A stretch of 64,000 bases of DNA, taken from assembly GCA_035513215.1 (NCBI GenBank), contig DATKCK010000015.1:27682-91681 (forward strand). The letters are read 5' to 3'. The stretch is from Gammaproteobacteria bacterium (GTDB lineage: Bacteria > Pseudomonadota > Gammaproteobacteria > Steroidobacterales > Rariloculaceae). Shown piece by piece: positions 18,440 through 49,761 of this stretch. Every line of letters starts with the position of its first letter. Position 1 is the stretch's first letter. The notes beneath the pieces are model-generated. The model was not told the origin of the DNA, made no database searches, and saw only the letters and a program-made list of their open reading frames with translations. Position numbers and translations under genes: made by a program.

Positions 18440-20742
18440 TGAGCCGCCAGGTCAACGATTTCGAGCACGACGCTTACGTTCCCGAGTGCATTCAGGAAAT
18501 CCGGGCCGAGCGCCGAAGTGCGATGGCGCTGAGCCGCCGCGGCTTCATCAAGGTCACGGGGCTAGCCGGCGGCGGCCTCGCGCTCGGCATCGGGCTTGGC
18601 ACCCCGCGTGCGGCCAGCGCGCAGGCCGGCGCGTCCGTCTTCGACGCGAATCCGTTCGTTCAGGTGCGCCCCGACAACACCGTCGTGATCTTCTCGAAGA
18701 ACCCCGACGTCGGTCAGGGTGTCAAGACCGCGATGCCGATGATCGTGGCCGAGGAGCTCGACGTCGACTGGAGTCAGGTCGTCGTCGAGCAGGCAGACAT
18801 CGACGCGGCCCGCTACGGTCAGCAGGTCGCGGGCGGCTCGACTTCGATTCCGAGTAACTGGATGACACTCCGGCAAGCCGGCGCAACGGCGCGGGCAATG
18901 CTTGTCTCGGCGGCGGCGATCGAGCTCGGCGTCGATGCCGCCGATCTTTCGACCGGCTCCGGCTTCGTGATACACGCGGCTTCGGACCGCCGCGTCGCCT
19001 ACGGCGATCTGGCCGGGCGGGCTTCGACGCTGCCCGTGCCGGACGCCGGGATGCTTACGCTGAAGCCCCGCTCCGAGTGGAAGCTGCTCGGGCGGCGCGT
19101 CACGGGCGTCGACAACGAGAAGATCGTGACGGGCCAGCCGCTTTTCGGCATCGACCAGCGCCTGCCGGGCCTGCTCTACGCGACTCTGGTCAAGGCGCCC
19201 AAGATCGGCGCGAGACCGGTCAGCGCGAATCTCGATCACGTCAGGTCGCTGCCCGGCGTGCACGACGCGTTCGTTGTCGAGGGCGCCGGCAATCCGATCG
19301 ACTTCGGAGTCGGCGTCGCCGCGCTGCCCGGCGTCGCGATCGTCGCGACTTCGACCTGGGCCGCTTTCAGAGCCGCCGACGAGCTCGCGGTGACGTGGGA
19401 CGAGAGCGCGGCCGCGAGCGACAGCTGGTCGGCAGCCGTTGCCGAGGCCGGCCGGCTCGCCGGCGAGAACGGCGCCCAGTCGCTCGCCGACAAAGGCGAC
19501 GTCGATCGGGCCATCGCCGACGCGAGCGCGACCGCCGAGGGCTTTTATACCTACCAGTTCGCCTCGCACGCTGACCTCGAGCCGCAAAACTGCACGGCCT
19601 GGTTCAAGGGCGATTCGATCGAGCTCTGGGCGCCGACGCAGACGCCGACGATGGCCGTACCGGCCGTCGCCGAGCTGCTCGGTTTGCCTGCCGAAAGCGT
19701 GACCTTGCATCAGCTTCGCGGCGGCGGCGGCTTCGGCCGCCGGCTCGCGAACGACAGCGTCTGCGAGGTCGCCCTGATCTCGCGGCGGGTCGGGCGTCCG
19801 GTCAAGGCGCAATGGTCGCGCGAGGACGACATGGGCTTCGACTACTACCGGCCTGGCGGATTCCATTCGTTCAAGGCCGCGATCGACGGCGCCGGCAGGC
19901 TCGCGGCCTGGCAGGATCACTTCATCACCTTCGGCCGCAACGGTCTGCCGATCAGCGCGGCCAATCTGAGCGCCAGCGAGTTTCCGGTCAACGCGCTGCC
20001 GAATGCGCGCATCACGCAAACGCTGATCGAATCGGGCATGCCGTCCGGTCCCTGGCGCGCGCCGGGCTCGAACGCGCTCGCGTTTGCGATCCAGTGTTTC
20101 CTGCACGAGTGCTCGGTCGCGGCCGGCCGCGATCACCTCGAGTTCCTGCTCGAGGTTTTCGATGGCCTTCCGGCCCCAGGCGCCGGGGGCGGTGGCCGCG
20201 GCGGCCGCGGCGGATTCGGCGGTGGCCTGAACCGCGAGCGCGCGCTGGCCGTCACGCGGCTTGCGGCCGAGGAGGGCGGCTGGGGCCGGCAGCTCCCGGC
20301 GGGCCGCGGGCTCGGCCTCGCGTTTCACTTCAGCCACCAGGGACACTTCGCCGAGGTGGCCGAGGTCAGCGTCGATTCGAATCGCAAGCTGACCGTGCAC
20401 AAGGTGACGGTCGCCGGCGATATCGGTCCCATCGTCAACATGAGCGGCGCCGAGAACCAGGCCCAGGGTTCGGTCGTTGATGCGCTGAGCACGCTGATGG
20501 GGCTCGAGATCACGTTCGAGGGTGGCCGCGTCGAGCAGAAGAACTTCGATCGCTACCCGATCCTGCGCATAAGCCAGGCGCCCGAGGTCGCCGTGCACTT
20601 CATCCAATCGGACAACGATCCGACCGGCATCGGCGAGCCGGCCTTCCCGCCGGCGGCGCCGGCGATCTGCAATGCGATCTACGCCGCGACCGGCCACCGC
20701 GTGCGGACGATGCCGCTCACCAAGGAAGGCTACACGATCTAG
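18439..20742 (+). CDS. Molybdopterin-binding large subunit, IorB / xanthine dehydrogenase family, Tat signal
   Basis: SRRGFIK Tat motif; GQGVKT, AGGSTS, GGGFGRR, WRAPG, GIGEP; ATG overlaps the upstream TAA. Confidence 0.93.
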   Translation: MSRQVNDFEHDAYVPECIQEIRAERRSAMALSRRGFIKVTGLAGGGLALGIGLGTPRAASAQAGASVFDANPFVQVRPDNTVVIFSKNPDVGQGVKTAMPMIVAEELDVDWSQVVVEQADIDAARYGQQVAGGSTSIPSNWMTLRQAGATARAMLVSAAAIELGVDAADLSTGSGFVIHAASDRRVAYGDLAGRASTLPVPDAGMLTLKPRSEWKLLGRRVTGVDNEKIVTGQPLFGIDQRLPGLLYATLVKAPKIGARPVSANLDHVRSLPGVHDAFVVEGAGNPIDFGVGVAALPGVAIVATSTWAAFRAADELAVTWDESAAASDSWSAAVAEAGRLAGENGAQSLADKGDVDRAIADASATAEGFYTYQFASHADLEPQNCTAWFKGDSIELWAPTQTPTMAVPAVAELLGLPAESVTLHQLRGGGGFGRRLANDSVCEVALISRRVGRPVKAQWSREDDMGFDYYRPGGFHSFKAAIDGAGRLAAWQDHFITFGRNGLPISAANLSASEFPVNALPNARITQTLIESGMPSGPWRAPGSNALAFAIQCFLHECSVAAGRDHLEFLLEVFDGLPAPGAGGGGRGGRGGFGGGLNRERALAVTRLAAEEGGWGRQLPAGRGLGLAFHFSHQGHFAEVAEVSVDSNRKLTVHKVTVAGDIGPIVNMSGAENQAQGSVVDALSTLMGLEITFEGGRVEQKNFDRYPILRISQAPEVAVHFIQSDNDPTGIGEPAFPPAAPAICNAIYAATGHRVRTMPLTKEGYTI

Positions 20743-42630: not shown

Positions 42631-43641
42631 CTAGCTGCCGGAGCTGTCGTGAATCTCGGGGAAGAAGAGGTCGCGCCAGGATGCCGGCAGGTTATCGATC
42701 GAGCCGATCGAGTGCATGAATTCGGCGTAGCGCATCGTGTTCTGCGGCGTCGTCGTGAACTCGATCTCGGGATCGGCAAGGAGCGCCGCGAGCTCGTCGC
42801 GGCTCAAGCCCGCGTCGCCGCGCGCCTCGATGAGAACGTCCGCTGCGGCGAGGCTATCCGCCTCGATCATCCCCATCGCTTCCTCGAGCGCTGCCAGCAC
42901 GGCCGCGTAAGCCTCGGGATTGCTTTCGCGATAGGCTCGCGTCGTCGACAGCATCGTGAACGTCGTCGCGCCGCCCATGACGTCGTTCGAGTTCTGGATC
43001 GTGCGGACGCCGGGATCGCGCCGCTCGCGCTGATGGAACGGCGGCGAAGTGTAGTGCGCGGTGATGTCGCTCGATTGCACCAGCATCGCGATGACGCCGT
43101 CCGGATGCGTCATCGAGACCGTGTAAGAGTCGAAGCGCGTTGCTTCATCGGCGCCGTAGCGCCCGGCCGCATACATCTGCATGATGATCGCGGGTATCGA
43201 CACCTTGATGGCCGTGACGGCGATCTTGTCGCCTTCACCGACGTCGTCGATCGACTCGAGATGCGGCGCGCGCGTATTGAGGTACATCGGCAGGGCCGAC
43301 ACGGCGGCTACGCCTCTGACGTCGAGCGAGTTTCGAGTGCGGTCCCAGAGCGTGATGAAGCCCGGCGGGCCCGCGATGATGAAATCGACCGAGCGCGATA
43401 TCAGGGCGTCGTTCATGACGGACGGGCCGCCGAGATCGAGCCACTCGACCGTGAGGCCGTCGAGCCCGGCCTCGGCCGCATGCTGCTCGATCAGCCCGTG
43501 CTCGCGCATCATCAGCAGCGGCAGGAAGCCGACGCCGCCGGCACCCGTCGGGATGCGAACGACGAGCGGGTCGCCCGAGCCGCCGCAGCCTGCGAGCAGC
43601 ACGCAGAGCGCGGCGAGACTTGCGCGCCGGATGCCTTTCAT
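42631..43641 (-). CDS. ABC substrate-binding lipoprotein, SsuA/NMT1 type
   Basis: Lipobox LAGC; directly upstream of ATPase and permease; MTHPD. Confidence 0.85.
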   Translation of the reverse strand: MKGIRRASLAALCVLLAGCGGSGDPLVVRIPTGAGGVGFLPLLMMREHGLIEQHAAEAGLDGLTVEWLDLGGPSVMNDALISRSVDFIIAGPPGFITLWDRTRNSLDVRGVAAVSALPMYLNTRAPHLESIDDVGEGDKIAVTAIKVSIPAIIMQMYAAGRYGADEATRFDSYTVSMTHPDGVIAMLVQSSDITAHYTSPPFHQRERRDPGVRTIQNSNDVMGGATTFTMLSTTRAYRESNPEAYAAVLAALEEAMGMIEADSLAAADVLIEARGDAGLSRDELAALLADPEIEFTTTPQNTMRYAEFMHSIGSIDNLPASWRDLFFPEIHDSSGS

Positions 43642-45008
43642 CGCGAGTCTCCGGCAGCGCGCCCGGCCGCTGTGCCGGGGCGCGAGTCTCTCGCGATCCG
43701 TCCCGCATTGTCGAGCGCGTCGATGCGCCAGCAGGCATCGATCAGCGCGTCGACCTGCGCCTGCGGCAGCGCGAGCACGGCCTGGTCGCGGAATTTCGCC
43801 TCGAGTTGCTCGTTGCTGAGCGGTCGATGGATATTGCCGAGCGATTGCTCGACGAAAAGCGAATGCACCGTGCCGTCCTCGAGCCGCACCTTGATGTCGA
43901 CCTGATCCTCGGTCACGGACTCGTCGGCGGCGACGCTGACGCGATTGCGCAGCCGCGCGAGCACCGGATCGGCGATGGCGTCCTCGGTGAACTCCTGGAT
44001 GCCGCCCTTGCCGCGGGCGAGTCCGATCGCCGCCGCGTGATAGATCGAGTACTTGCTCTGAAGCGCGCGATCGAGCTCGCGCTTGTTGCAGAGGTCGAGG
44101 ACGAGCGGCGCGACCTTGAGCTCGATCGATTCGATCCGCATCGGATCAGGCCGGTCGCGCTCGCGGATCCGGCTGCAGCCGTCGATCGTCGGGTGAACGA
44201 CGAGACCGCAGGCGTATGGCTTGTACGCGTTGCCGCGCAGCGCGAACTCGGTGCCTAGCCCTGAGCCGATCCTGTCGAGGTCATAATCCCGCGCCGTGAC
44301 CGGGGCGAAGCCGCGCGGGCCTTCGAGCGCCTGCTCGCCGGCCGTGAAATCGGCCGCCGCGAAGCGCGCCGCGGTCAGGCCGTTCTGTGCCGCGCGTCCC
44401 GGCTGAAACGACTTCGCCATCGAGCCGAACATCTCGCGGATGCCGGCGGCCTGCGTTGCCGCGAGGCCGAAGGCCCAGATCATCTGCCGCGTCGAAAGGC
44501 CGAGCAGCTTGCCAATCGCGGCCGCCGCGCCGAAAACGCCGGTCGTCGACGTGATGTGCCAGCCGGCTTTGTAGTGCGCGGGATAGACGGCGTCGCCGAT
44601 CCGCGATTCGACCTCGAATCCAAGTATGAAGGCGTGGACGAAATCGCGGCCGGACACAGGGTGCGCGCTCGCATAGGCGAAGAGCGCCGATGCGACCGGC
44701 ACGCTCGGATGAATGTAGTTCTGCGGCAGCGTGTCGTCGTATTCGTGCACGTGCGATCCGATGCCGTTCAGAAGCGCAGCGTTGAGCTCGTCGAACATCT
44801 CGCTTCTGCCGAGCACGCAGGCTTCCGGCTGACCGCTGAACGGCGCAAGCACCTCGATGGCCGTGTCGAGCGCGGGCTCGACACTCCCGCCCAGAGCACA
44901 GCCGAGATAGTTCAGGATCGCGCGCTTCGCCTCGGTCTGGACATCGGCCGGAATCGACTCGAGGTCCGATTGTGTGACGAAATCCGCGAGCTGTCGGGTC
45001 GGCGACAT
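43638..45008 (-). CDS. MmgE/PrpD family protein
   Basis: HVHEYDD, HPSVPV, GWH.T.T.G.FGAA, FGSMAKS, KPYACG...HP; start ATG 45008. Confidence 0.9.
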   Translation of the reverse strand: MSPTRQLADFVTQSDLESIPADVQTEAKRAILNYLGCALGGSVEPALDTAIEVLAPFSGQPEACVLGRSEMFDELNAALLNGIGSHVHEYDDTLPQNYIHPSVPVASALFAYASAHPVSGRDFVHAFILGFEVESRIGDAVYPAHYKAGWHITSTTGVFGAAAAIGKLLGLSTRQMIWAFGLAATQAAGIREMFGSMAKSFQPGRAAQNGLTAARFAAADFTAGEQALEGPRGFAPVTARDYDLDRIGSGLGTEFALRGNAYKPYACGLVVHPTIDGCSRIRERDRPDPMRIESIELKVAPLVLDLCNKRELDRALQSKYSIYHAAAIGLARGKGGIQEFTEDAIADPVLARLRNRVSVAADESVTEDQVDIKVRLEDGTVHSLFVEQSLGNIHRPLSNEQLEAKFRDQAVLALPQAQVDALIDACWRIDALDNAGRIARDSRPGTAAGRAAGDSR

Positions 45009-45016
45009 GGCGGACA

Positions 45017-46126
45017 CTACGGCGCGTACCGGACGCAGTAGATCGGCGGCAGGGTGTGGCTGACGCACTGCCAGTGAGCGCCCTGATCGTCGCTGACGAA
45101 GAGATTGCCCGTCGTGCTGCCGAAGGCGATCGAGTTGCCACTTGCGTCGATATCCATGCCGTGACGATAGACGAGATCATAGGAATGCTCCTGCGGCAGG
45201 CCGTCGGTCAGCTTCTCAAAGCTCTTGCCGCCGTCGCGCGTGCGCGTGGCGACGAGTCTACCGTCGACGGGATAGCGAAACTCGTCCTTGACGCCCGGCA
45301 CGAACCAGGCCGAATCGGGATCCTCGGGATGCACGACAACGGCGAAGCCGAAGACCGAGGGATCGACGTCGGTGATCTCGTCGCAGGTGCGACCCGAGTC
45401 GCGGCTCACGAAGATGCCGTTGTGATGCTGCATCCAGACCGCGTCCGGCGCCTCACGGCACTGCACGGCCCGGTGCACGTCCTGCCCGTTCGGCTCCTTC
45501 GCGAACTCCGGCGGCGAGTACTCGGCGCGCAGCCCCACGCCCTCGACGCTCCAGGTCTCGCCATGATCGTAGCTCGCCCAGACGCCGCCGCAGGAAACGC
45601 CGATGCGAATCGTCGCGGAGTCTCTCGGATCGACCATGATCGAATGAATGCCGGGATAGTCGGCGCCGCCGCCCATCCACTGCTTGCGGCCTTCGTGCCG
45701 CCAGAGCGACTCGACGAGCTGCCAGGTGTCGCCGTTATCGCTCGAATGAAACAGTCCGCCCGGAATCGTGCCGCACCAGAGCTCGCCGGGCCGATCGGGG
45801 CCGCCCGTCTCGAGCGACCAGACGGTCTTCAGATCCCAGGGGACCGGGGTTTGCCGGATCGGGTCGATGTCTTCGACGTCGTCGGGCTTGCCGGGATAAA
45901 CCGGAACCGGCCGCTCTTCGAACGTCTCGGCGCCGTCGGTGCTGCGTTTGATCTTGACGCCGAAGTGACCTTGCGCTTGCGCCGCGGTCACGGCGCCGTC
46001 GGCCCCGGGCAGCAGCATCGAGACAGGGTCGCCGAGCAGCGCCGCCTTCGTGATTTCCCAGCCGGAGCGCTTCCGGTCGATCGCGAAGAGTCCCTTGCGG
46101 GTGCCCGCATAAATCCGTCCTGTCAT
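45017..46126 (-). CDS. Asp-box (BNR) beta-propeller protein (exo-alpha-sialidase-like fold), no signal peptide
   Basis: Repeated S-x-D-x-G-x-T-W boxes: STDGAETF, SSDNGDTW, SYDHGETW, SRDSGRT, TRDGGKSF, SDDQGAHW. Confidence 0.85.
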   Translation of the reverse strand: MTGRIYAGTRKGLFAIDRKRSGWEITKAALLGDPVSMLLPGADGAVTAAQAQGHFGVKIKRSTDGAETFEERPVPVYPGKPDDVEDIDPIRQTPVPWDLKTVWSLETGGPDRPGELWCGTIPGGLFHSSDNGDTWQLVESLWRHEGRKQWMGGGADYPGIHSIMVDPRDSATIRIGVSCGGVWASYDHGETWSVEGVGLRAEYSPPEFAKEPNGQDVHRAVQCREAPDAVWMQHHNGIFVSRDSGRTCDEITDVDPSVFGFAVVVHPEDPDSAWFVPGVKDEFRYPVDGRLVATRTRDGGKSFEKLTDGLPQEHSYDLVYRHGMDIDASGNSIAFGSTTGNLFVSDDQGAHWQCVSHTLPPIYCVRYAP

Positions 46127-46131
46127 TGGTT

Positions 46132-46410
46132 CTATCCCCCGGAGAGCGCCTGAAACACGTGGACGCGACTGCCCGGCAGCAAGGGATCGCTCAGGCCCAG
46201 GCGATCCCTGATGTTACGGCCGTCGATCGTGACCTTGACGTGGTGCCTGACACCGCCCTGATCGTCCAGTATGTAACCGCGGACGTCGGGCCAACGGCCG
46301 AAGTAGCTCTCGAGACATTCGGCGAGCGTCGCGGCTTCGAGCGACTCGGTCGGACACGCGACGTGGCGGCGGAGATTCGGAGTGAACTCGATCGTGGGCA
46401 CGCCGGTCAT
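46132..46410 (-). CDS. MoaD/ThiS family ubiquitin-like protein
   Basis: 92 aa beta-grasp pattern ending ALSGG; ATG 46410 overlaps the upstream stop. Confidence 0.9.
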   Translation of the reverse strand: MTGVPTIEFTPNLRRHVACPTESLEAATLAECLESYFGRWPDVRGYILDDQGGVRHHVKVTIDGRNIRDRLGLSDPLLPGSRVHVFQALSGG

Positions 46411-47318
46411 CCGTTGGCTGCCGCGAGAATGCCGTAGGGCGTTCGCTCGAACCGGCGGCAGTTCGTGAGTGGGACCAGTGCCGTCGAGACGAACGCGTAT
46501 TGTCCGTTCAAGGCGGCATGGCTGATGCCGTCGGTAAAGACCATCCAGGCCGACATCGACGGAAATCGGATCTCCTGATAATCCGAGCGATCGTCCCGGA
46601 ACGACGGCGTCTCCTTCATATAGTTGTGTATGCGCCGCATCGAGCGGTCGTAGGGGCTCGAATCGATGACGCGAAGCAGCGGATAGACCTTGCTCGCGCC
46701 GGCGATGAGGCCGCTCAAAAGGCGATCCATCGGGCGCTTTTCGACCGGCACCTTGCGCTTGCCGCCTTTCGCGGCCGTCCAGAGCGGAGGGTGCCGCTGC
46801 ATGATCTGCTCGAAGCTGCCCTTCGTGCCCCAGACGCGGTCGCGCGTGGGATGCACGTTGACGAAGAATCTGAGGATTCGCGCGCCGTCGGTCGCGCCGT
46901 AAGCGCCGGCATCGATGTGAACGAGCTCGTTGCTCGATCGGGCTTCGAGATTGCGTCCCTGTTCCTCCACCGGCCGAAAGCTCGTCGTGCCGAAAGTCGA
47001 GCCCAGCACGAAATCGGGGACGGTCCGGCGCCAGAATTCGGCGACGCGCTTGCCATGGGCTCGGAGGAGGTTCTCGACCCGGATTTTCGTCTCGGCGTCT
47101 GCCTCGAAGCGTGGTACCGAGTCCGATTCCGGGTGATAGCTCAGGTTCTTGGCCTTCAGTGCCGCATCGAGCCCGCTTCTGAGCCATTCGAGGTCGCGCT
47201 CGGTCGGAAGCGCGATCGGGCATTTCGGGAAGTAAACGACCTCGCCGCCTTCGAGCGCGTCCTCGATCTCGTCGCTCGTCGAATCGGTGAAATCCCGGAG
47301 AGGGTATGCGTCGGTCAT
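46407..47318 (-). CDS. Kdo hydroxylase family (KdoO-like) dioxygenase
   Basis: LE.G.V.YFP, KNLSY, TSFRPVE, HID metal motif, RILRFFVN..P...RVW, S.YD..M..IHN.MK, WMVFTD..SHA. Confidence 0.8.
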   Translation of the reverse strand: MTDAYPLRDFTDSTSDEIEDALEGGEVVYFPKCPIALPTERDLEWLRSGLDAALKAKNLSYHPESDSVPRFEADAETKIRVENLLRAHGKRVAEFWRRTVPDFVLGSTFGTTSFRPVEEQGRNLEARSSNELVHIDAGAYGATDGARILRFFVNVHPTRDRVWGTKGSFEQIMQRHPPLWTAAKGGKRKVPVEKRPMDRLLSGLIAGASKVYPLLRVIDSSPYDRSMRRIHNYMKETPSFRDDRSDYQEIRFPSMSAWMVFTDGISHAALNGQYAFVSTALVPLTNCRRFERTPYGILAAANG

Positions 47319-48394
47319 ACTTTAATATCGCGCTCCTGAAACGCCTTGTCGAGCTTTTCGACGACATCGACGACCGCGATCCGATCCATCACGTCCGGCG
47401 CGCGCACGCGGCGGCCCCAGCGTATTTCGCCGACCTCGCAACCGAGCTCGTCGTGCACGGCTTCCGGATATTTATCGACAACGAGGTGCTGGCTCGCCCA
47501 GGGCCCGGTCCGGAAGCGGTTCGAGCTGGCATAAAGCCCGACGACGGGCGTGCCGACGGCGGTTGCCATGTGCGCGGGGCCGGAATCGGGGCAGAGCAGG
47601 ACGCTGGCGCGTTGGATCAGGCAGAGCAGTTGCTTCAGCGTCGTCTGGCCGATCAGGTTTTCCACGGGGCACGACGCGAGCCGGGATATTTCGACGCCGT
47701 AGCTTCGCTCGAGCTCGGTCGTTCCGCCGGTCAGCAGAATGCGCGCGCCGAAGCGCGTATGCGCATAGTCGGCGGTGGCCGCGTATCGCTCGGCGCGCCA
47801 GTTGCGAAAGTTGCGAAAGCGCTGGCCCGTGCAGGGGCTGATGACGAGGCATGGGCTCCCGGCACCGATCGTGCGCGCCGCGAATTCGCGATCGCTGTCG
47901 GCAACGGGAATGTCCCATCGCGGACGGCCGGGCTCAATTCCGAGCGCCTCGACGAACTCGAACAGGCCATCCATGACGTGCCGCTCGGCCCGCGCGGGAA
48001 TGTGCGCGTTACAGAACCAGTACTGGCCGTCTCTCGCGCGCGCGCGGTCGAAGCCGAAGCGCAGGGGGGACTGGACGCAGAGGCTGGCAAGATTCGCGCG
48101 CTGCGACGCGTGCATGTGAAGGAGAACGGGAAAGCGGCGATTCGCGATCTGCCGCCGCAGCGTGGGATAGCCGCGCCAGCCGAGTGACTTGTCGAGCACG
48201 GCGAAGCGCACGCACTCCATGCCCTGCATCAGCGAGTGCTCGACCCGGCCGATGATCCACGTGATCTCGGTATCGGGCCAGGCATCCTGGATCGCGCGCA
48301 CGACGGGTACCGTGTGGCAGGTATCCCCGATGGCCGAGAGCCTTACGATGCAGAGGCGCCCGGGCGGCTCGGTGAGCGGCAGCCGCGTGCGCAC
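47315..48394 (-). CDS. Glycosyltransferase family 9 (LPS heptosyltransferase-like)
   Basis: IVRLSAIGD, LIGQTTLKQL, CPDSGPAHMA, GTPVVGLY; start chosen at GTG 48394. Confidence 0.9.
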   Translation of the reverse strand: MRTRLPLTEPPGRLCIVRLSAIGDTCHTVPVVRAIQDAWPDTEITWIIGRVEHSLMQGMECVRFAVLDKSLGWRGYPTLRRQIANRRFPVLLHMHASQRANLASLCVQSPLRFGFDRARARDGQYWFCNAHIPARAERHVMDGLFEFVEALGIEPGRPRWDIPVADSDREFAARTIGAGSPCLVISPCTGQRFRNFRNWRAERYAATADYAHTRFGARILLTGGTTELERSYGVEISRLASCPVENLIGQTTLKQLLCLIQRASVLLCPDSGPAHMATAVGTPVVGLYASSNRFRTGPWASQHLVVDKYPEAVHDELGCEVGEIRWGRRVRAPDVMDRIAVVDVVEKLDKAFQERDIKV

Positions 48395-48413
48395 GAGCCC
48401 GTTGCCGCGATGC

Positions 48414-48809
48414 TCAGTCGAAGGTTTCGCCTTCGAAGCCCCAGCCATAGCCATCCGAGGGTCGGAGCAGGCTTTGCATGCGCAGCCGGTGCAGCTCGGG
48501 ATTGCGAGAAGGATTGCCGGTGATGATGACGTGATCGCCGGCCCTGAGCGACTCGCGCGTGACGCCCTGGCCCGAGAGCTGGCCGGCGCCGCCCCATTCG
48601 ATACCCCAGCGGACCATCTCCCCGTTCTCGTTCTCGGCCAGCAGGTCGACCGAGGCATGCGGGTTGCGAAAATGAAAAGCAACGAGCGTCCCTTCGATTC
48701 TGACTTCCTTCGACTCGTCATAGGTGGCCGTGAAGGAGTGGTGGGCCTCGGCGCCGATCGCGAGGATCAGTCCAAAGGCTGCTGCCACCAGCATGCGCGT
48801 GCGCTTCAT
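48414..48809 (-). CDS. DUF6152-like exported protein, second copy
   Basis: Signal peptide then AHHSFTATYD...EGTLV.F.FRNPH; GGAGG SD before ATG 48809. Confidence 0.75.
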   Translation of the reverse strand: MKRTRMLVAAAFGLILAIGAEAHHSFTATYDESKEVRIEGTLVAFHFRNPHASVDLLAENENGEMVRWGIEWGGAGQLSGQGVTRESLRAGDHVIITGNPSRNPELHRLRMQSLLRPSDGYGWGFEGETFD

Positions 48810-48843
48810 CGTATCCCTCCAGTAGTGCTCCGTTGCGCCCATT

Positions 48844-49761
48844 TTAGCGTCTTTGCTGCGCGCTTGGCTGAACGCCGGCTGAAAGCATGCGCCGGGCGAT
48901 CGAAACGAAAGCGAGCGCGGTCGCCGGCATGACTGCGGCGTAGATCAGGGCGGAAATCGCGAATTCCGGCACATCGAGAATCACGTAGGCGATCGCAAGG
49001 CCAAGCGCCAGGTTCTGCACGCCGACCTCGAACGTAATGGTCACCACCTGCTCGACGGGCAAGCGAAACAGCTTCGCGGCGCCGAAGCCGAGCGCCATTG
49101 TCAGGACGTTCATGACGATGACGAGAAGGCCTGCGGCCGCGAAGTTGTCGACGATCTCCTCGATGCTGGCGACGACGCCGAGCAGAAGCACGAGAATCAT
49201 GAGCCAGAGCACGGCCTTACGAATTGGCTCGACGGCCCGCTCGGCGAGAGCGGGAAAGAAATGGCGAAACAGCATGCCGAGTGCCAGTGGAATCAGAGTG
49301 AAGCCCATGAGATTGAGCAGCATGTTCTGCGCCGACATCGTGACGACTTGACCCGGCTCGGCGAAAACCCGGAGCGCGAGCTCGATGAGGAAGGGAATCG
49401 TGAACACCGTGATGACGCTCGTCAGCGCCGACAGCGTCACGCAGAGCGGCACGTCGGCGCGCGCGGCAAACGTGTAGGCATTCGCCGTGACGCCGCTTGG
49501 GCAGGCGGCGAGGATGACGAGCCCGACGGCGATGGCGGGCGGCGCGTCGAATGCGAGCGCCAGCAAGAATGCCGTCAGGGGTAGGCCGACGAGCTGTGCC
49601 ACGAGCCCGACCGTCACCGCCTTGGGGAACACGATGACTCGTTTGAAATCCACGAGTGTCAGCGAGAGCCCGAGGCCGGCCATGACGAGCCGAAGCACCC
49701 AGGGCACGATCTCCGAGTTGACGAACTCGGCCTGGCCGCTGAAGCGTGCGATCCATTCCAT
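48844..49761 (-). CDS. Bile acid:sodium symporter family transporter
   Basis: M..LGLSL, Q...LP, ACPSG..AN, E.GVQN. Confidence 0.9.
   Translation of the reverse strand: MEWIARFSGQAEFVNSEIVPWVLRLVMAGLGLSLTLVDFKRVIVFPKAVTVGLVAQLVGLPLTAFLLALAFDAPPAIAVGLVILAACPSGVTANAYTFAARADVPLCVTLSALTSVITVFTIPFLIELALRVFAEPGQVVTMSAQNMLLNLMGFTLIPLALGMLFRHFFPALAERAVEPIRKAVLWLMILVLLLGVVASIEEIVDNFAAAGLLVIVMNVLTMALGFGAAKLFRLPVEQVVTITFEVGVQNLALGLAIAYVILDVPEFAISALIYAAVMPATALAFVSIARRMLSAGVQPSAQQRR

What the first reader, a model, noticed from the sequence alone, without database searches (positions are those of the whole stretch)
45017..46410. Stand-alone ubiquitin-like protein paired with a cytoplasmic Asp-box beta-propeller, with no E1, JAB or Moco/thiamine genes nearby
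Seen: a 92-aa MoaD/ThiS protein with a free C-terminal GG, 5 nt upstream of a 369-aa six-Asp-box propeller that lacks a signal peptide. No moaE, moeB, thiF, thiG, cysM or JAB gene occurs in the 64 kb. Established: such Ubls act as sulfur carriers or protein modifiers and need E1-type activation. Inference: the tightly linked pair may be an uncharacterised Ubl system in which the propeller is the receptor or catalytic partner rather than a sialidase. I recall this gene pair from other bacteria but no function for it.
Basis: partly seen in the sequence, partly recalled or inferred. Interest (0 to 1): 0.65.

Follow-up and report, generated by a model that had tools for sequence, protein, structure and literature searches.

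The report
Gly-Gly carrier protein plus propeller pair
A small ubiquitin-like protein ending in Gly-Gly and the seven-bladed propeller protein encoded right after it form a fixed two-gene unit found in many bacteria (in Pseudomonas aeruginosa, the genes I infer to be PA1355 and PA1356); no study of its function turned up, and it is most likely a sulfur-carrier protein with a new kind of partner enzyme, not a sialidase.

Summary
Window 46132-46410(-) encodes a 92-aa ThiS/MoaD-fold protein ending in SGG-stop. Five nt downstream, 45017-46126(-) encodes a 369-aa cytoplasmic propeller with six Asp-boxes. No E1, MoaE, ThiG, CysM-type or JAB gene lies on the contig.

The pair is an autonomous cassette:
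- The carrier is adjacent in 80/80 related genome loci from six phyla, and 79/79 intact copies end in LSGG.
- There is no third conserved gene (78 different neighbourhoods).
- The link survives a gene-order flip in paralogous subgroups: carrier downstream in 70/72 metagenome loci.
- In five of those loci a MoeZ-type E1-rhodanese gene abuts the pair. One is a self-contained propeller-carrier-E1 operon.

The propeller is not a sialidase. It has seven blades. Its nearest structure is the uncharacterised 3B7F, followed by GH74, Ycf48 and sortilin. It has a conserved His/Asp/Lys/Arg set at predicted top-face positions and no conserved Cys.

This genome has its own moaACDE operon, one MoeB-type E1 and no thiG, so the carrier is neither MoaD nor ThiS.

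Best reading (about 50%): a thiocarboxylate carrier, activated in trans by MoeB, that serves a new propeller-type partner enzyme whose substrate is unknown. No paper on it was found. It is a new variant of a known kind and has been flagged many times in this scan.

The parts
46132..46410 (-). Gene for a 92-aa ThiS/MoaD-fold ubiquitin-like carrier ending ...QALSGG-stop
   Evidence: Translation. Pfam ThiS 25.3 bits, above the cut-off. The profile's best solved relatives are SAMP1 (E 3e-4) and CysO (E 0.04). Residues D49, R55, H57, Q87, L89, S90, G91 and G92 are invariant in 80 orthologues.
45017..46126 (-). Gene for a 369-aa cytoplasmic seven-bladed propeller with six Asp-boxes, the carrier's fixed partner
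   Evidence: Translation. The AF2 model has pLDDT 95 and pTM 0.93. The nearest structure is 3B7F at TM 0.89. Invariant residues include T9, K11, H54, H161, D216, H218, Q233, H235, R284 and R321.
46124..46140 (-). Junction: the Gly-Gly codons (GGG GGA), the TAG stop, a 5-nt spacer and the propeller ATG. The G-rich Gly codons lie 8 nt before the ATG, where a Shine-Dalgarno would sit.
   Evidence: Sequence read. The spacer is 1-5 nt in most of the 80 related loci.
46407..46410 (-). ATGA overlap between the stop of the upstream KdoO-like gene and the carrier's ATG. This neighbour is specific to the lineage and is not part of the system.
   Evidence: KdoO and GT9 lie upstream only in L001 and L002. 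No terminator-like site lies between GT9 and PrpD on the minus strand.

Best explanation
The pair is a sulfur-carrier protein with a dedicated partner enzyme of a new, propeller type.

Inferred mechanism:
1. The genome's housekeeping MoeB-type E1 (contig C84) adenylates the carrier's C-terminal Gly-Gly.
2. A persulfide donor converts the adenylate to a thiocarboxylate.
3. The flexible QALSGG tail docks on the top face of the seven-bladed propeller. There conserved K11, R284 and R321 would hold the (thio)carboxylate, and H54, D216, H161, H218 and H235 (possibly with a metal) would do the chemistry.
4. Sulfur passes to a common, still unknown cytoplasmic substrate.

Shown here: the two genes, the invariant free GG, the invariant linkage, the seven-bladed non-sialidase fold, the conserved polar set, an E1 available in trans, and an E1-rhodanese gene next to the pair in some relatives.

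Inferred: thiocarboxylation, tail docking, catalysis and the substrate.
For: - The carrier is adjacent in 80/80 genome loci from Pseudomonadota, Verrucomicrobiota, Planctomycetota, Nitrospirota, Cyanobacteriota and Rhodothermota. Of these, 79/79 intact copies end in LSGG-stop.
- There is no third conserved gene. The 98 loci give 78 distinct neighbourhoods, and a Pfam tally of 145 nearest neighbours shows no recurrent partner.
- In paralogous subgroups (31-42% identity) the order is reversed but the carrier is still adjacent: 12 of 16 class-sample loci and 70 of 72 metagenome loci with room for it.
- A MoeZ-type E1 (ThiF plus rhodanese) directly follows the carrier in L168, L171, L172 and L174, and is divergent from the pair in L119. 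L168 is a closed three-gene operon, propeller-carrier-E1.
- The own genome has a separate moaA-C-D-E operon, one MoeB-type E1, no ThiG and no JAB. BLASTP finds no similarity between the carrier and the genome's own MoaD.
- H54, D216 and R284 are kept in 81/83 carrier-linked propellers. The two exceptions have a divergent AIAGG carrier. All five distant carrier-less relatives have changed H54 and/or D216.
- 22 of 24 propeller-bearing genomes in the class sample have MoaE, against 107 of 177 without the propeller (p = 0.0025).
- Established knowledge: MoaD-MoaE, ThiS-ThiG and CysO-CysM all insert the GG tail into the partner's active site, and E1s such as MoeZ or TtuC serve several carriers in trans.
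Against: - There are no biochemical data of any kind.
- No Cys is conserved in the propeller (C118 and C364 are Ala or Ser in close and distant relatives), so it has no persulfide relay of its own.
- No sulfur- or cofactor-pathway gene recurs next to the pair.
- No E1 lies within 8 kb in L001-L102, and only 5 of the 80 metagenome loci have one nearby.
- In an AF2 model of a read-through fusion the tail residues 89-92 have pLDDT below 50. The test is unfair, because the GG is peptide-bonded there and no PAE or coordinates are returned.
- One called protein (P0269) fuses carrier and propeller with the GG internal. Both would need processing.
- A Ser/Thr-kinase-propeller fusion (P0196) suggests that at least one subgroup uses the propeller as a binding domain.
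Confidence: 0.5

Rival explanations
1. The carrier and propeller form a non-covalent complex. The carrier would be a regulatory or structural subunit, plug or adaptor whose C-terminal QALSGG peptide is simply bound by the propeller. Other Asp-box propellers bind C-terminal peptides in this way. No adenylation or sulfur would be involved.
For: - After 3B7F and GH74, the nearest structures include Ycf48 crystallised with the D1 C-terminal peptide, sortilin with the neurotensin C-terminus, and DAIP with a thermolysin C-terminal fragment.
- No sulfur-pathway gene recurs nearby.
- A kinase-propeller fusion (P0196) fits a binding domain.
- The pTM of 0.80 for the fusion model is about what I estimate for a docked pair. 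This is my own rough arithmetic.
Against: - The chain stops exactly after GG in 79/79 orthologues and in the distant subgroups. This is the hallmark of C-terminal activation.
- MoeZ-type E1-rhodanese genes abut the pair in two lineages, once as a closed three-gene operon.
- The conserved His/Asp set looks catalytic or metal-binding rather than a peptide groove.
Confidence: 0.2
2. The carrier is a protein modifier of the SAMP, TtuB or Urm1 type. It would be conjugated to lysines, possibly together with cysteine persulfidation under stress. The propeller would be its main target, its receptor or an E3-like specificity factor.
For: - The carrier's best family and structure matches are SAMP1 (NCBIfam 40.5 bits; PDB 2l52 and 3po0 at E 3e-4).
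- K11 is invariant in the propeller.
- Neighbours are weakly enriched for VOC, YciI, AHSA1 and Cupin stress-type proteins. ahpCF lies nearby in Mitsuaria.
- An ECF42-like promoter motif lies upstream in 4 of 80 loci.
- Urm1 conjugates without an E2 or E3 (PMC9574740, abstract listed).
Against: - The genome has no JAB or JAMM deconjugase.
- No Cys is conserved in the propeller, unlike Urm1 targets.
- The SAMP1 score is below the family cut-off.
- The stress-gene enrichment is weak (5 of 145).
Confidence: 0.15
3. The propeller is a hydrolase that acts on the carrier's C-terminus. It would trim extensions, cleave carrier fusions or conjugates, or hydrolyse the thiocarboxylate or adenylate. That is a DUB-like or recycling role in place of a JAMM enzyme.
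For: - A called carrier-linker-propeller fusion with an internal GG exists (P0269).
- An earlier scan note reports an ...SGGES end.
- No JAB gene is present.
- A His/Asp-rich conserved site could be hydrolytic.
Against: - 79/79 orthologues and nearly all distant copies already end in GG and need no trimming.
- The fusion is a singleton cluster.
- No protease-like fold match was found.
Confidence: 0.08
4. The propeller is an ordinary sialidase or glycoside hydrolase, as annotated, and the small gene is a coincidental MoaD/ThiS paralogue that serves Moco or thiamine synthesis.
For: - Databases call the orthologues exo-alpha-sialidase.
- 3B7F was deposited as a putative glycosyl hydrolase.
- Asp-boxes are present.
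Against: - The propeller has seven blades, not six, no FRIP motif, no signal peptide, and no invariant Tyr or Glu.
- The best sialidase hit for the profile is E 0.06 over about 50 residues. No sialidase is in the Foldseek top 50.
- GH74 enzymes need two tandem propellers.
- The linkage holds in 80/80 loci plus 70/72.
- The genome has its own moaD-moaE and no thiG.
Confidence: 0.03

Closest known systems
CysO-CysM with MoeZ (Mycobacterium tuberculosis cysteine synthesis), and CysO with BexX (2-thiosugar pathway)
   Same: Both have a roughly 90-aa ThiS/MoaD-fold carrier with a free GG, encoded next to its acceptor enzyme. An E1-rhodanese (MoeZ) usually encoded elsewhere activates it. The CysO structure 3dwg is a weak profile hit (E 0.04). 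MoeZ-type genes abut the pair in some relatives.
   Different: The partner here is a seven-bladed Asp-box propeller, not a PLP enzyme (CysM) or a ThiG-like TIM barrel (BexX). There is no Mec/JAMM gene. The substrate is unknown.
MoaD-MoaE (molybdopterin synthase) and ThiS-ThiG
   Same: A carrier gene is adjacent to its partner enzyme, the GG tail is expected to enter the partner's active site, and the E1 (MoeB) acts in trans.
   Different: This genome has a separate canonical moaA-C-D-E operon and no thiG. BLASTP finds no similarity between the carrier and the genome's own MoaD. The partner's fold is unrelated.
SAMP1, TtuB and Urm1 (dual sulfur carriers and protein modifiers)
   Same: These give the best family and structure matches for the carrier. 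All have a free GG end and possible stress links.
   Different: The score is below the SAMP1 cut-off. There is no JAMM, no TtuA/Ncs6-type partner, and no evidence of conjugation.
PDB 3B7F (Reut_B4987, Ralstonia eutropha JMP134; structural-genomics entry titled 'putative glycosyl hydrolase with BNR repeats')
   Same: It belongs to the same superfamily and has the same fold: profile E 1.4e-70 and TM 0.89. It shares H54, H161, D216, H218, Q233, H235, R284 and R321.
   Different: It belongs to a paralogous subgroup (about 31-35% identity) with the changes K58T, W117Y, C118A, H234N, N236C and H322Q. In that subgroup the carrier gene lies downstream. No function has been published.
Ycf48/HCF136, sortilin Vps10 domain, DAIP and GH74 xyloglucanases (Asp-box propellers)
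   Same: They share Asp-box beta-propeller architecture (TMq 0.31-0.66). Several of them bind C-terminal peptides.
   Different: Family scores are far below the cut-offs (Ycf48 19.5 against 326). Most are extracytoplasmic. GH74 enzymes have two propellers and sortilin has ten blades. None has a Ubl partner.
Bacterial exo-alpha-sialidases (GH33)
   Same: Asp-box repeats and the database name.
   Different: Sialidases have six blades, a FRIP motif, an Arg triad with a Tyr/Glu nucleophile, and are usually secreted. None of these features was found here.

Membership tests
ThiS/MoaD sulfur-carrier family (PF02597) | Beta-grasp domain matching the family model above its cut-off | tested here: met
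   25.3 bits against a cut-off of 22.5. A genome-wide search finds it as one of only two ThiS-family hits.
ThiS/MoaD sulfur-carrier family (PF02597) | Free C-terminal Gly-Gly | tested here: met
   The protein ends ...SGG followed by TAG. The end is invariant in 79/79 orthologues.
ThiS/MoaD sulfur-carrier family (PF02597) | Adenylation and thiocarboxylation by a ThiF/MoeB-type E1 | not testable with these tools
   Indirect evidence only. One MoeB-type E1 is present in the genome. MoeZ-type E1-rhodanese genes abut the pair in five related loci.
MoaD proper (molybdopterin synthase small subunit) | Partner MoaE, and being the genome's Moco carrier | tested here: not met
   The canonical moaD-moaE genes lie on C64. 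BLASTP finds no similarity to that MoaD. The TIGR01687 score is 27.4 against a cut-off of 49.5.
ThiS proper | Partner ThiG in the genome | tested here: not met
   The genome has no ThiG.
SAMP1 (NCBIfam NF041918) | Score above the equivalog cut-off | tested here: not met
   40.5 bits against a cut-off of 60.
Exo-alpha-sialidase (GH33) | Six-bladed propeller | tested here: not met
   The AF2 model (pLDDT 95) has 29 strands, which I assign to seven four-stranded blades. No sialidase is among the top 50 Foldseek hits.
Exo-alpha-sialidase (GH33) | FRIP motif, Arg triad, nucleophilic Tyr/Glu and acid/base Asp | tested here: not met
   The sequence has no (F/Y)RIP. No Tyr or Glu is invariant. The best sialidase profile hit is E 0.06 over about 50 residues. 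Three invariant Arg exist (R147, R284, R321), but R147 is lost in paralogues. Without model coordinates, superposition on a sialidase site was not possible.
GH74 xyloglucanase | Two tandem seven-bladed propellers forming the catalytic cleft | tested here: not met
   The protein is a single 369-aa propeller. It covers only about a third of GH74 chains (TMt 0.20-0.36).
F510_1955 family glycosylhydrolase (NCBIfam NF045728) | Score above the cut-off | tested here: not met
   54.7 bits against a cut-off of 175.
Ycf48/HCF136 photosystem II assembly factor | Score above the cut-off, and a photosynthetic context | tested here: not met
   19.5 bits against a cut-off of 326. TMq is about 0.5.
3B7F-type cytoplasmic Asp-box propeller superfamily (unnamed, carrier-linked) | Full-length homology, plus the conserved set T9, K11, H54, H161, D216, H218, Q233, H235, R284, R321, plus an adjacent GG carrier | tested here: met
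   Profile E 1.4e-70 and TM 0.89 to 3B7F. All ten residues are present. The carrier is adjacent.

The most novel reading that the evidence does not exclude
The propeller is a new class of thiocarboxylate-dependent enzyme. It would have a His-lined, possibly metal-bearing hub (H54, H161, H218, H235 with D216), and the carrier would hand it sulfide.

One version makes an unknown thiol metabolite or a metal-sulfide centre. Another version, in some subgroups, would sulfurate the molybdenum cofactor of xanthine-oxidase-family enzymes. Hints for the second version:
- YqeC follows carrier-less paralogues.
- A carrier-propeller fusion lies behind coxS/L/M-like genes.
- Xanthine-oxidase-family enzymes are found in 13/24 propeller-bearing genomes against 49/177 others (p = 0.016).
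- MoaE is found in 22/24 against 107/177.

Alternatively, the pair is a bacterial Urm1-like stress system.
Probability: 0.2. Interest if true: 0.85.

Novelty: new variant of a known kind. Interest (0 to 1): 0.6.

Why it matters
Sulfur-carrier proteins are the ancestors of ubiquitin. Every partner enzyme characterised so far (MoaE, ThiG, CysM, BexX, TtuA, TfuA/YcaO) defined a pathway.

This carrier's partner is a propeller, a fold not known to work with such carriers. The cassette is strongly conserved: 53-84% identity across phyla, at least 7,980 clusters at 90% identity, and 337 clusters at 50% identity with E <= 1e-30. It occurs in tractable bacteria such as P. aeruginosa (PA1355/PA1356 by my numbering), Ralstonia and Cupriavidus metallidurans. 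A crystal structure of a paralogue already exists.

Working out the function would add a pathway to bacterial sulfur trafficking or Ubl biology. It would also correct a widespread 'exo-alpha-sialidase' misannotation. That label may already underlie a published statement that PA1356 promotes colonisation and biofilm formation (PMC11538994).

Tried and rejected
- **Third conserved gene.** ORF clustering of 80 loci, de-replication into 78 contexts and a Pfam tally of 145 nearest neighbours found none. The top family was VOC/glyoxalase with only 5 hits.
- **E1 near the pair in genome loci.** tblastn with the own MoeB found none in L001-L102. It was found only in 5 metagenome loci.
- **Complex prediction.** No multimer tool is offered, so I folded a read-through fusion from L061 (carrier, 64-aa non-coding linker, propeller). 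pTM was 0.80 and the carrier core was confident, but the tail had pLDDT below 50. No PAE or coordinates are returned, so the result is inconclusive.
- **Natural fusions.** A region-restricted search with the carrier found none. Apparent propeller-carrier fusions were shadow-frame ORFs. One real called fusion (P0269) is a singleton.
- **Covariation.** Mutual information between tail position -6 and propeller columns over 63 pairs gave no clear signal.
- **ECF42-type promoter.** This was a lead from earlier notes. The motif occurs in 4 of 80 upstream regions and not in this window.
- **Link to xanthine-oxidase-family Mo enzymes.** The enrichment is weak (p = 0.016), the link is not obligate (11 of 24 genomes lack them), and the genes are adjacent in only 1 of about 180 loci.
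- **Local neighbours GT9, KdoO and MmgE/PrpD as partners.** They are shared only with the two closest relatives.
- **Literature.** Four searches and three papers gave no functional study.
- **Model coordinates.** They are not available in the Python box. Placement of conserved residues on the top face therefore rests on strand topology only.
Full report
**What is in the window**

On the minus strand, 46132-46410 encodes a 92-aa protein ending ...FQALSGG followed by TAG. It passes Pfam ThiS (25.3 bits, cut-off 22.5). Its best NCBIfam hit is SAMP1 at 40.5 bits, below that model's cut-off of 60.

Five nucleotides later, 45017-46126 encodes a 369-aa protein. Pfam matches are Sortilin-Vps10 and BNR. 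NCBIfam F510_1955 glycosylhydrolase scores 54.7 bits against a cut-off of 175. Reading the sequence gives six Asp-boxes and no signal-peptide-like N-terminus. The Gly-Gly codons GGGGGA lie 8 nt before the propeller's ATG, where a ribosome-binding site would sit.

The pair sits inside a tightly packed co-directional string:
- GT9 heptosyltransferase, 47315-48721
- KdoO-like gene, 46407-47318, whose stop overlaps the carrier's ATG (ATGA)
- carrier
- propeller
- MmgE/PrpD family gene. The ORF runs 43638-45068, and its likely start at 45008 lies 8 nt after the propeller's stop.
- a 336-aa ORF with no Pfam match (42631-43641) and two further untested ORFs that look like ABC-transporter components

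No terminator-like site lies between these genes on the minus strand.

The window is C15:27682-91681 of a 3.52-Mb, 114-contig, 98%-complete assembly. Family searches over the whole assembly gave:
- ThiF family only on C84 and C59
- MoaE only on C64
- no ThiG
- no Prok-JAB or JAB
- six PALP hits, none on C15

The claims hold for the whole contig, not only the window.

C64 carries a canonical moaA-moaC-moaD-moaE operon. Its MoaD is 80 aa and ends ...PPVAGG. C84 carries a 291-aa MoeB-type E1 without a rhodanese domain, downstream of ORFs I read as prfA and prmC without testing them. The window's carrier is the only other ThiS-family hit in the genome. BLASTP finds no similarity between it and the genome's MoaD. 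It is therefore neither the Moco carrier nor a thiamine carrier.

**The pair is an autonomous, conserved cassette**

A scan of one genome per species returned 80 loci with a propeller 53-84% identical to the window's. They come from Gammaproteobacteria, Burkholderiales, Verrucomicrobiota, Planctomycetota, Nitrospirota, Cyanobacteriota and Rhodothermota.

All 80 have the carrier immediately upstream. One copy, L067, is frameshifted. The other 79 all end in (A/S/L)LSGG-stop. The spacer to the propeller's ATG is mostly 1-5 nt.

Nothing else is conserved around the pair:
- ORF clustering finds no third family.
- 98 loci fall into 78 unrelated neighbourhoods.
- A Pfam tally of the 145 nearest neighbour proteins has no recurrent partner. 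VOC/glyoxalase scores 5, GNAT 3, Cupin 3, and YCII and AHSA1 2 each.
- The window's own neighbours (GT9, KdoO, PrpD) are shared only with its two closest relatives.

A FastTree of the propellers is largely phylum-coherent, with a few nested outliers. Inheritance is therefore mostly vertical, with strong constraint.

The family is sizeable. At least 7,980 clusters at 90% identity matched. Among 50%-identity representatives, 337 matched at E <= 1e-30. In an even sample of 201 genera of the same class, 24 carry a homologue.

**The link is older than the gene order**

In the class sample, the more distant homologues (31-42% identity) mostly carry a carrier ending QALSGG directly downstream of the propeller. 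In two cases the carrier is divergent and ends AIAGG.

A metagenome scan seeded with that subgroup gave 80 more loci. The carrier (...ALSGG) lies directly downstream in 70 of the 72 loci with room for it.

A few very distant members lack an adjacent carrier. L089 and L092 have a YqeC gene instead. L103 (Fuscovulum) and L104 (Streptomyces) have neither.

**Evidence for E1-dependent chemistry**

In five of the metagenome loci a ThiF-family gene abuts the pair. It directly follows the carrier on the same strand in L168, L171, L172 and L174, and is divergent from the propeller in L119. The two full-length copies contain ThiF plus a C-terminal rhodanese domain, which is the MoeZ/Uba4 architecture that makes thiocarboxylates. 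L168 is a closed three-gene operon, propeller-carrier-E1, followed by a convergent gene.

This adjacency, the strict stop after GG, and the established habit of MoeB, MoeZ or TtuC of serving several carriers in trans together make thiocarboxylation the most economical reading. They also explain why no E1 is needed nearby.

In the class sample, 22 of 24 propeller-bearing genomes have MoaE, and so a Moco pathway with its E1. The figure for the rest is 107 of 177 (p = 0.0025). The two exceptions have Mo-hydroxylases.

**What the propeller is and is not**

AlphaFold2 with a 108-sequence alignment gives pLDDT 95 and pTM 0.93. From the strand list I assign seven four-stranded blades. The N-terminal strands close the last blade, and the Asp-boxes sit in the C-D turns.

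The family profile hits one solved structure strongly: 3B7F (Reut_B4987 of Ralstonia eutropha JMP134), a 2007 structural-genomics entry titled putative glycosyl hydrolase with BNR repeats. The profile E-value is 1.4e-70. Foldseek puts it first at TM 0.89. Next come GH74 xyloglucanases, with TMq up to 0.66 while covering only about a third of those two-propeller chains, then DAIP, Ycf48 and sortilin. No sialidase is in the top 50.

The best sialidase sequence hit is E 0.06 over about 50 residues. There is no FRIP motif and no invariant Tyr or Glu. The database name exo-alpha-sialidase is not supported.

**The conserved site**

Orthologues keep T9, K11, H54, K58, R147, H161, Q215, D216, H218, Q233, H234, H235, N236, D281, R284, R321 and H322.

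Across 83 carrier-linked propellers of all subgroups, the core is T9, K11, H161, H218, Q233, H235 and R321 (about 100%), plus H54, D216 and R284 (81 of 83). The two exceptions are the loci with the divergent AIAGG carrier. All five distant carrier-less members have replaced H54 and/or D216.

By strand topology these residues lie at the start of the innermost strands or in the D-A and B-C loops. That is the top face around the central channel, where propeller enzymes usually work.

C118 and C364 are not conserved; they are Ala or Ser in Pseudomonas, Ralstonia and the paralogues. The propeller therefore has no conserved cysteine for a persulfide relay.

**Mechanism proposed**

I put this at about 50%. 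MoeB on C84 adenylates the carrier's terminal glycine, and a persulfide donor converts it to the thiocarboxylate. The QALSGG tail enters the propeller's top-face site. There the cationic residues K11, R284 and R321 bind the (thio)carboxylate, and the His/Asp set, possibly with a metal, transfers sulfur to a common cytoplasmic substrate.

Only the anatomy and the comparative pattern are shown. The chemistry is inferred by analogy with MoaD-MoaE, ThiS-ThiG and CysO-CysM.

The rivals are:
- a purely non-covalent tail-binding complex (about 20%)
- a SAMP/Urm1-like modifier system (about 15%)
- a hydrolase acting on the carrier's C-terminus (about 8%)
- the annotated glycosidase reading (about 3%)

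**Other leads**

*P. aeruginosa.* The record pZYPA1927 carries the pair between YciI/VOC genes and a YbaK gene, near PmpM and an ECF-type sigma factor. Because PA1357 is the YbaK-domain protein (PMC11987610), I infer that the pair is PA1355/PA1356.

*Literature.* No functional study was found. One transcriptome paper describes PA1356 as promoting colonisation, adhesion and biofilm formation, which may come from the sialidase label (PMC11538994).

*Fusions.*
- P0269 is a carrier-linker-propeller fusion with an internal AISGG. It is a singleton on a 1.49-Mb contig, directly behind coxS/L/M-like Mo-hydroxylase genes and a DUF1326 gene.
- P0196 is a Ser/Thr kinase fused to a propeller of the W54/C216 variant.

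*Mo-hydroxylase hint.* These fusions, the YqeC neighbours, and a modest enrichment of xanthine-oxidase-family enzymes (13 of 24 against 49 of 177, p = 0.016) hint at a link to Mo-hydroxylase maturation in some subgroups. The link is not obligate: 11 of 24 genomes lack such enzymes, and only 1 of about 180 loci has one nearby.

**Relation to earlier notes of this scan**

The same pair has been flagged in about 147 other genomes, with similar conclusions. I tested three of their leads:
- Presence in P. aeruginosa: confirmed.
- A MoeZ-type E1 next to the pair in some lineages: confirmed independently.
- An ECF42-type promoter: found in only 4 of 80 upstream regions, and not in this window.

**Limits**

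- No multimer prediction, PAE or coordinates were available. The read-through-fusion model was inconclusive: pTM 0.80, carrier core pLDDT 87-97, tail below 50.
- The co-occurrence tests are small and are not corrected for phylogeny or genome size.

**Verdict**

The feature is a real, widely conserved, uncharacterised sulfur-carrier-type cassette with a propeller partner. It is a new variant of a known kind. Interest is 0.6. This window adds no special twist beyond a lineage-specific position behind LPS-core genes.

Noticed in passing
L082 (own genome C59:40279-42165; outside the window): An operon of Multiubiquitin (PF14452), DUF6791-ThiF (an E1-like fusion) and DUF6527 proteins. On the opposite strand lie two ORFs that look like an Xre-type regulator and an ImmA/IrrE-type peptidase by eye; I did not test them. 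By recall this resembles the bacterial ubiquitination-like (Bub/Bil-type) operons; that resemblance was not tested. It is the genome's only other E1.
   Followed up: partly
L093:5038-5964: Three tandem copies of the carrier's C-terminal half follow the propeller. One is full length and two are partial duplicates starting at ...YPGIRFRMVDEQ. All three end in QALSGG.
   Followed up: no
L100:3923-4654: A decayed remnant. The propeller is truncated, has an internal TAA, and its end is fused in frame to the carrier's last approximately 30 residues (...IVQALNGGR). This looks like a pseudogenised pair.
   Followed up: no
L089:4902-5837 and L092:1986-2807: Carrier-less distant propeller paralogues (H54 to I/V, D216 to N, H235 to Y) are followed by a YqeC gene. 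From recall, YqeC is the accessory protein linked to selenium-dependent molybdenum hydroxylases.
   Followed up: partly
L186:1272-7362: A called carrier-linker-propeller fusion (P0269, internal ...AISGG) lies directly downstream of coxS/L/M-like molybdenum hydroxylase genes, an 81-aa gene and a DUF1326 gene. It is on a 1.49-Mb contig.
   Followed up: partly
P0196 (704 aa; metagenome protein): A Ser/Thr protein kinase domain is fused to a propeller of this superfamily (W54/C216 variant), with no obvious membrane segment between the two. This suggests a cytoplasmic sensor or binding role in that subgroup.
   Followed up: no
window 19486-20145 (+): A xanthine-oxidase-family molybdenum hydroxylase large subunit (MoCoBD_1, 109 bits, 915-aa open frame) lies about 25 kb from the pair. 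The genome has six such matches.
   Followed up: no
window 46407-48721 (-): A GT9 heptosyltransferase and a KdoO-like Kdo hydroxylase (Pfam 200 bits, but NCBIfam KdoO 133 bits against a cut-off of 300) are translationally coupled to each other and to the carrier gene. The arrangement is shared only with L001 and L002.
   Followed up: partly
L067:7727-8041: The carrier gene of a Verrucomicrobiaceae MAG is frameshifted. It is the only broken copy among 80, and could be a sequencing error or a pseudogene.
   Followed up: no
L102 (NZ_CP133752.1, P. aeruginosa 'plasmid' pZYPA1927): This record carries genes that appear to be chromosomal in PAO1, judging from PA1357 = YbaK and my recall that PmpM is PA1361. 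It may be a chromosomal fragment rather than a plasmid.
   Followed up: no
window 48414-49761 (-): A DUF6152 protein (142 aa) and an SBF-family sodium/bile-acid-type symporter lie just upstream of the GT9 gene.
   Followed up: no
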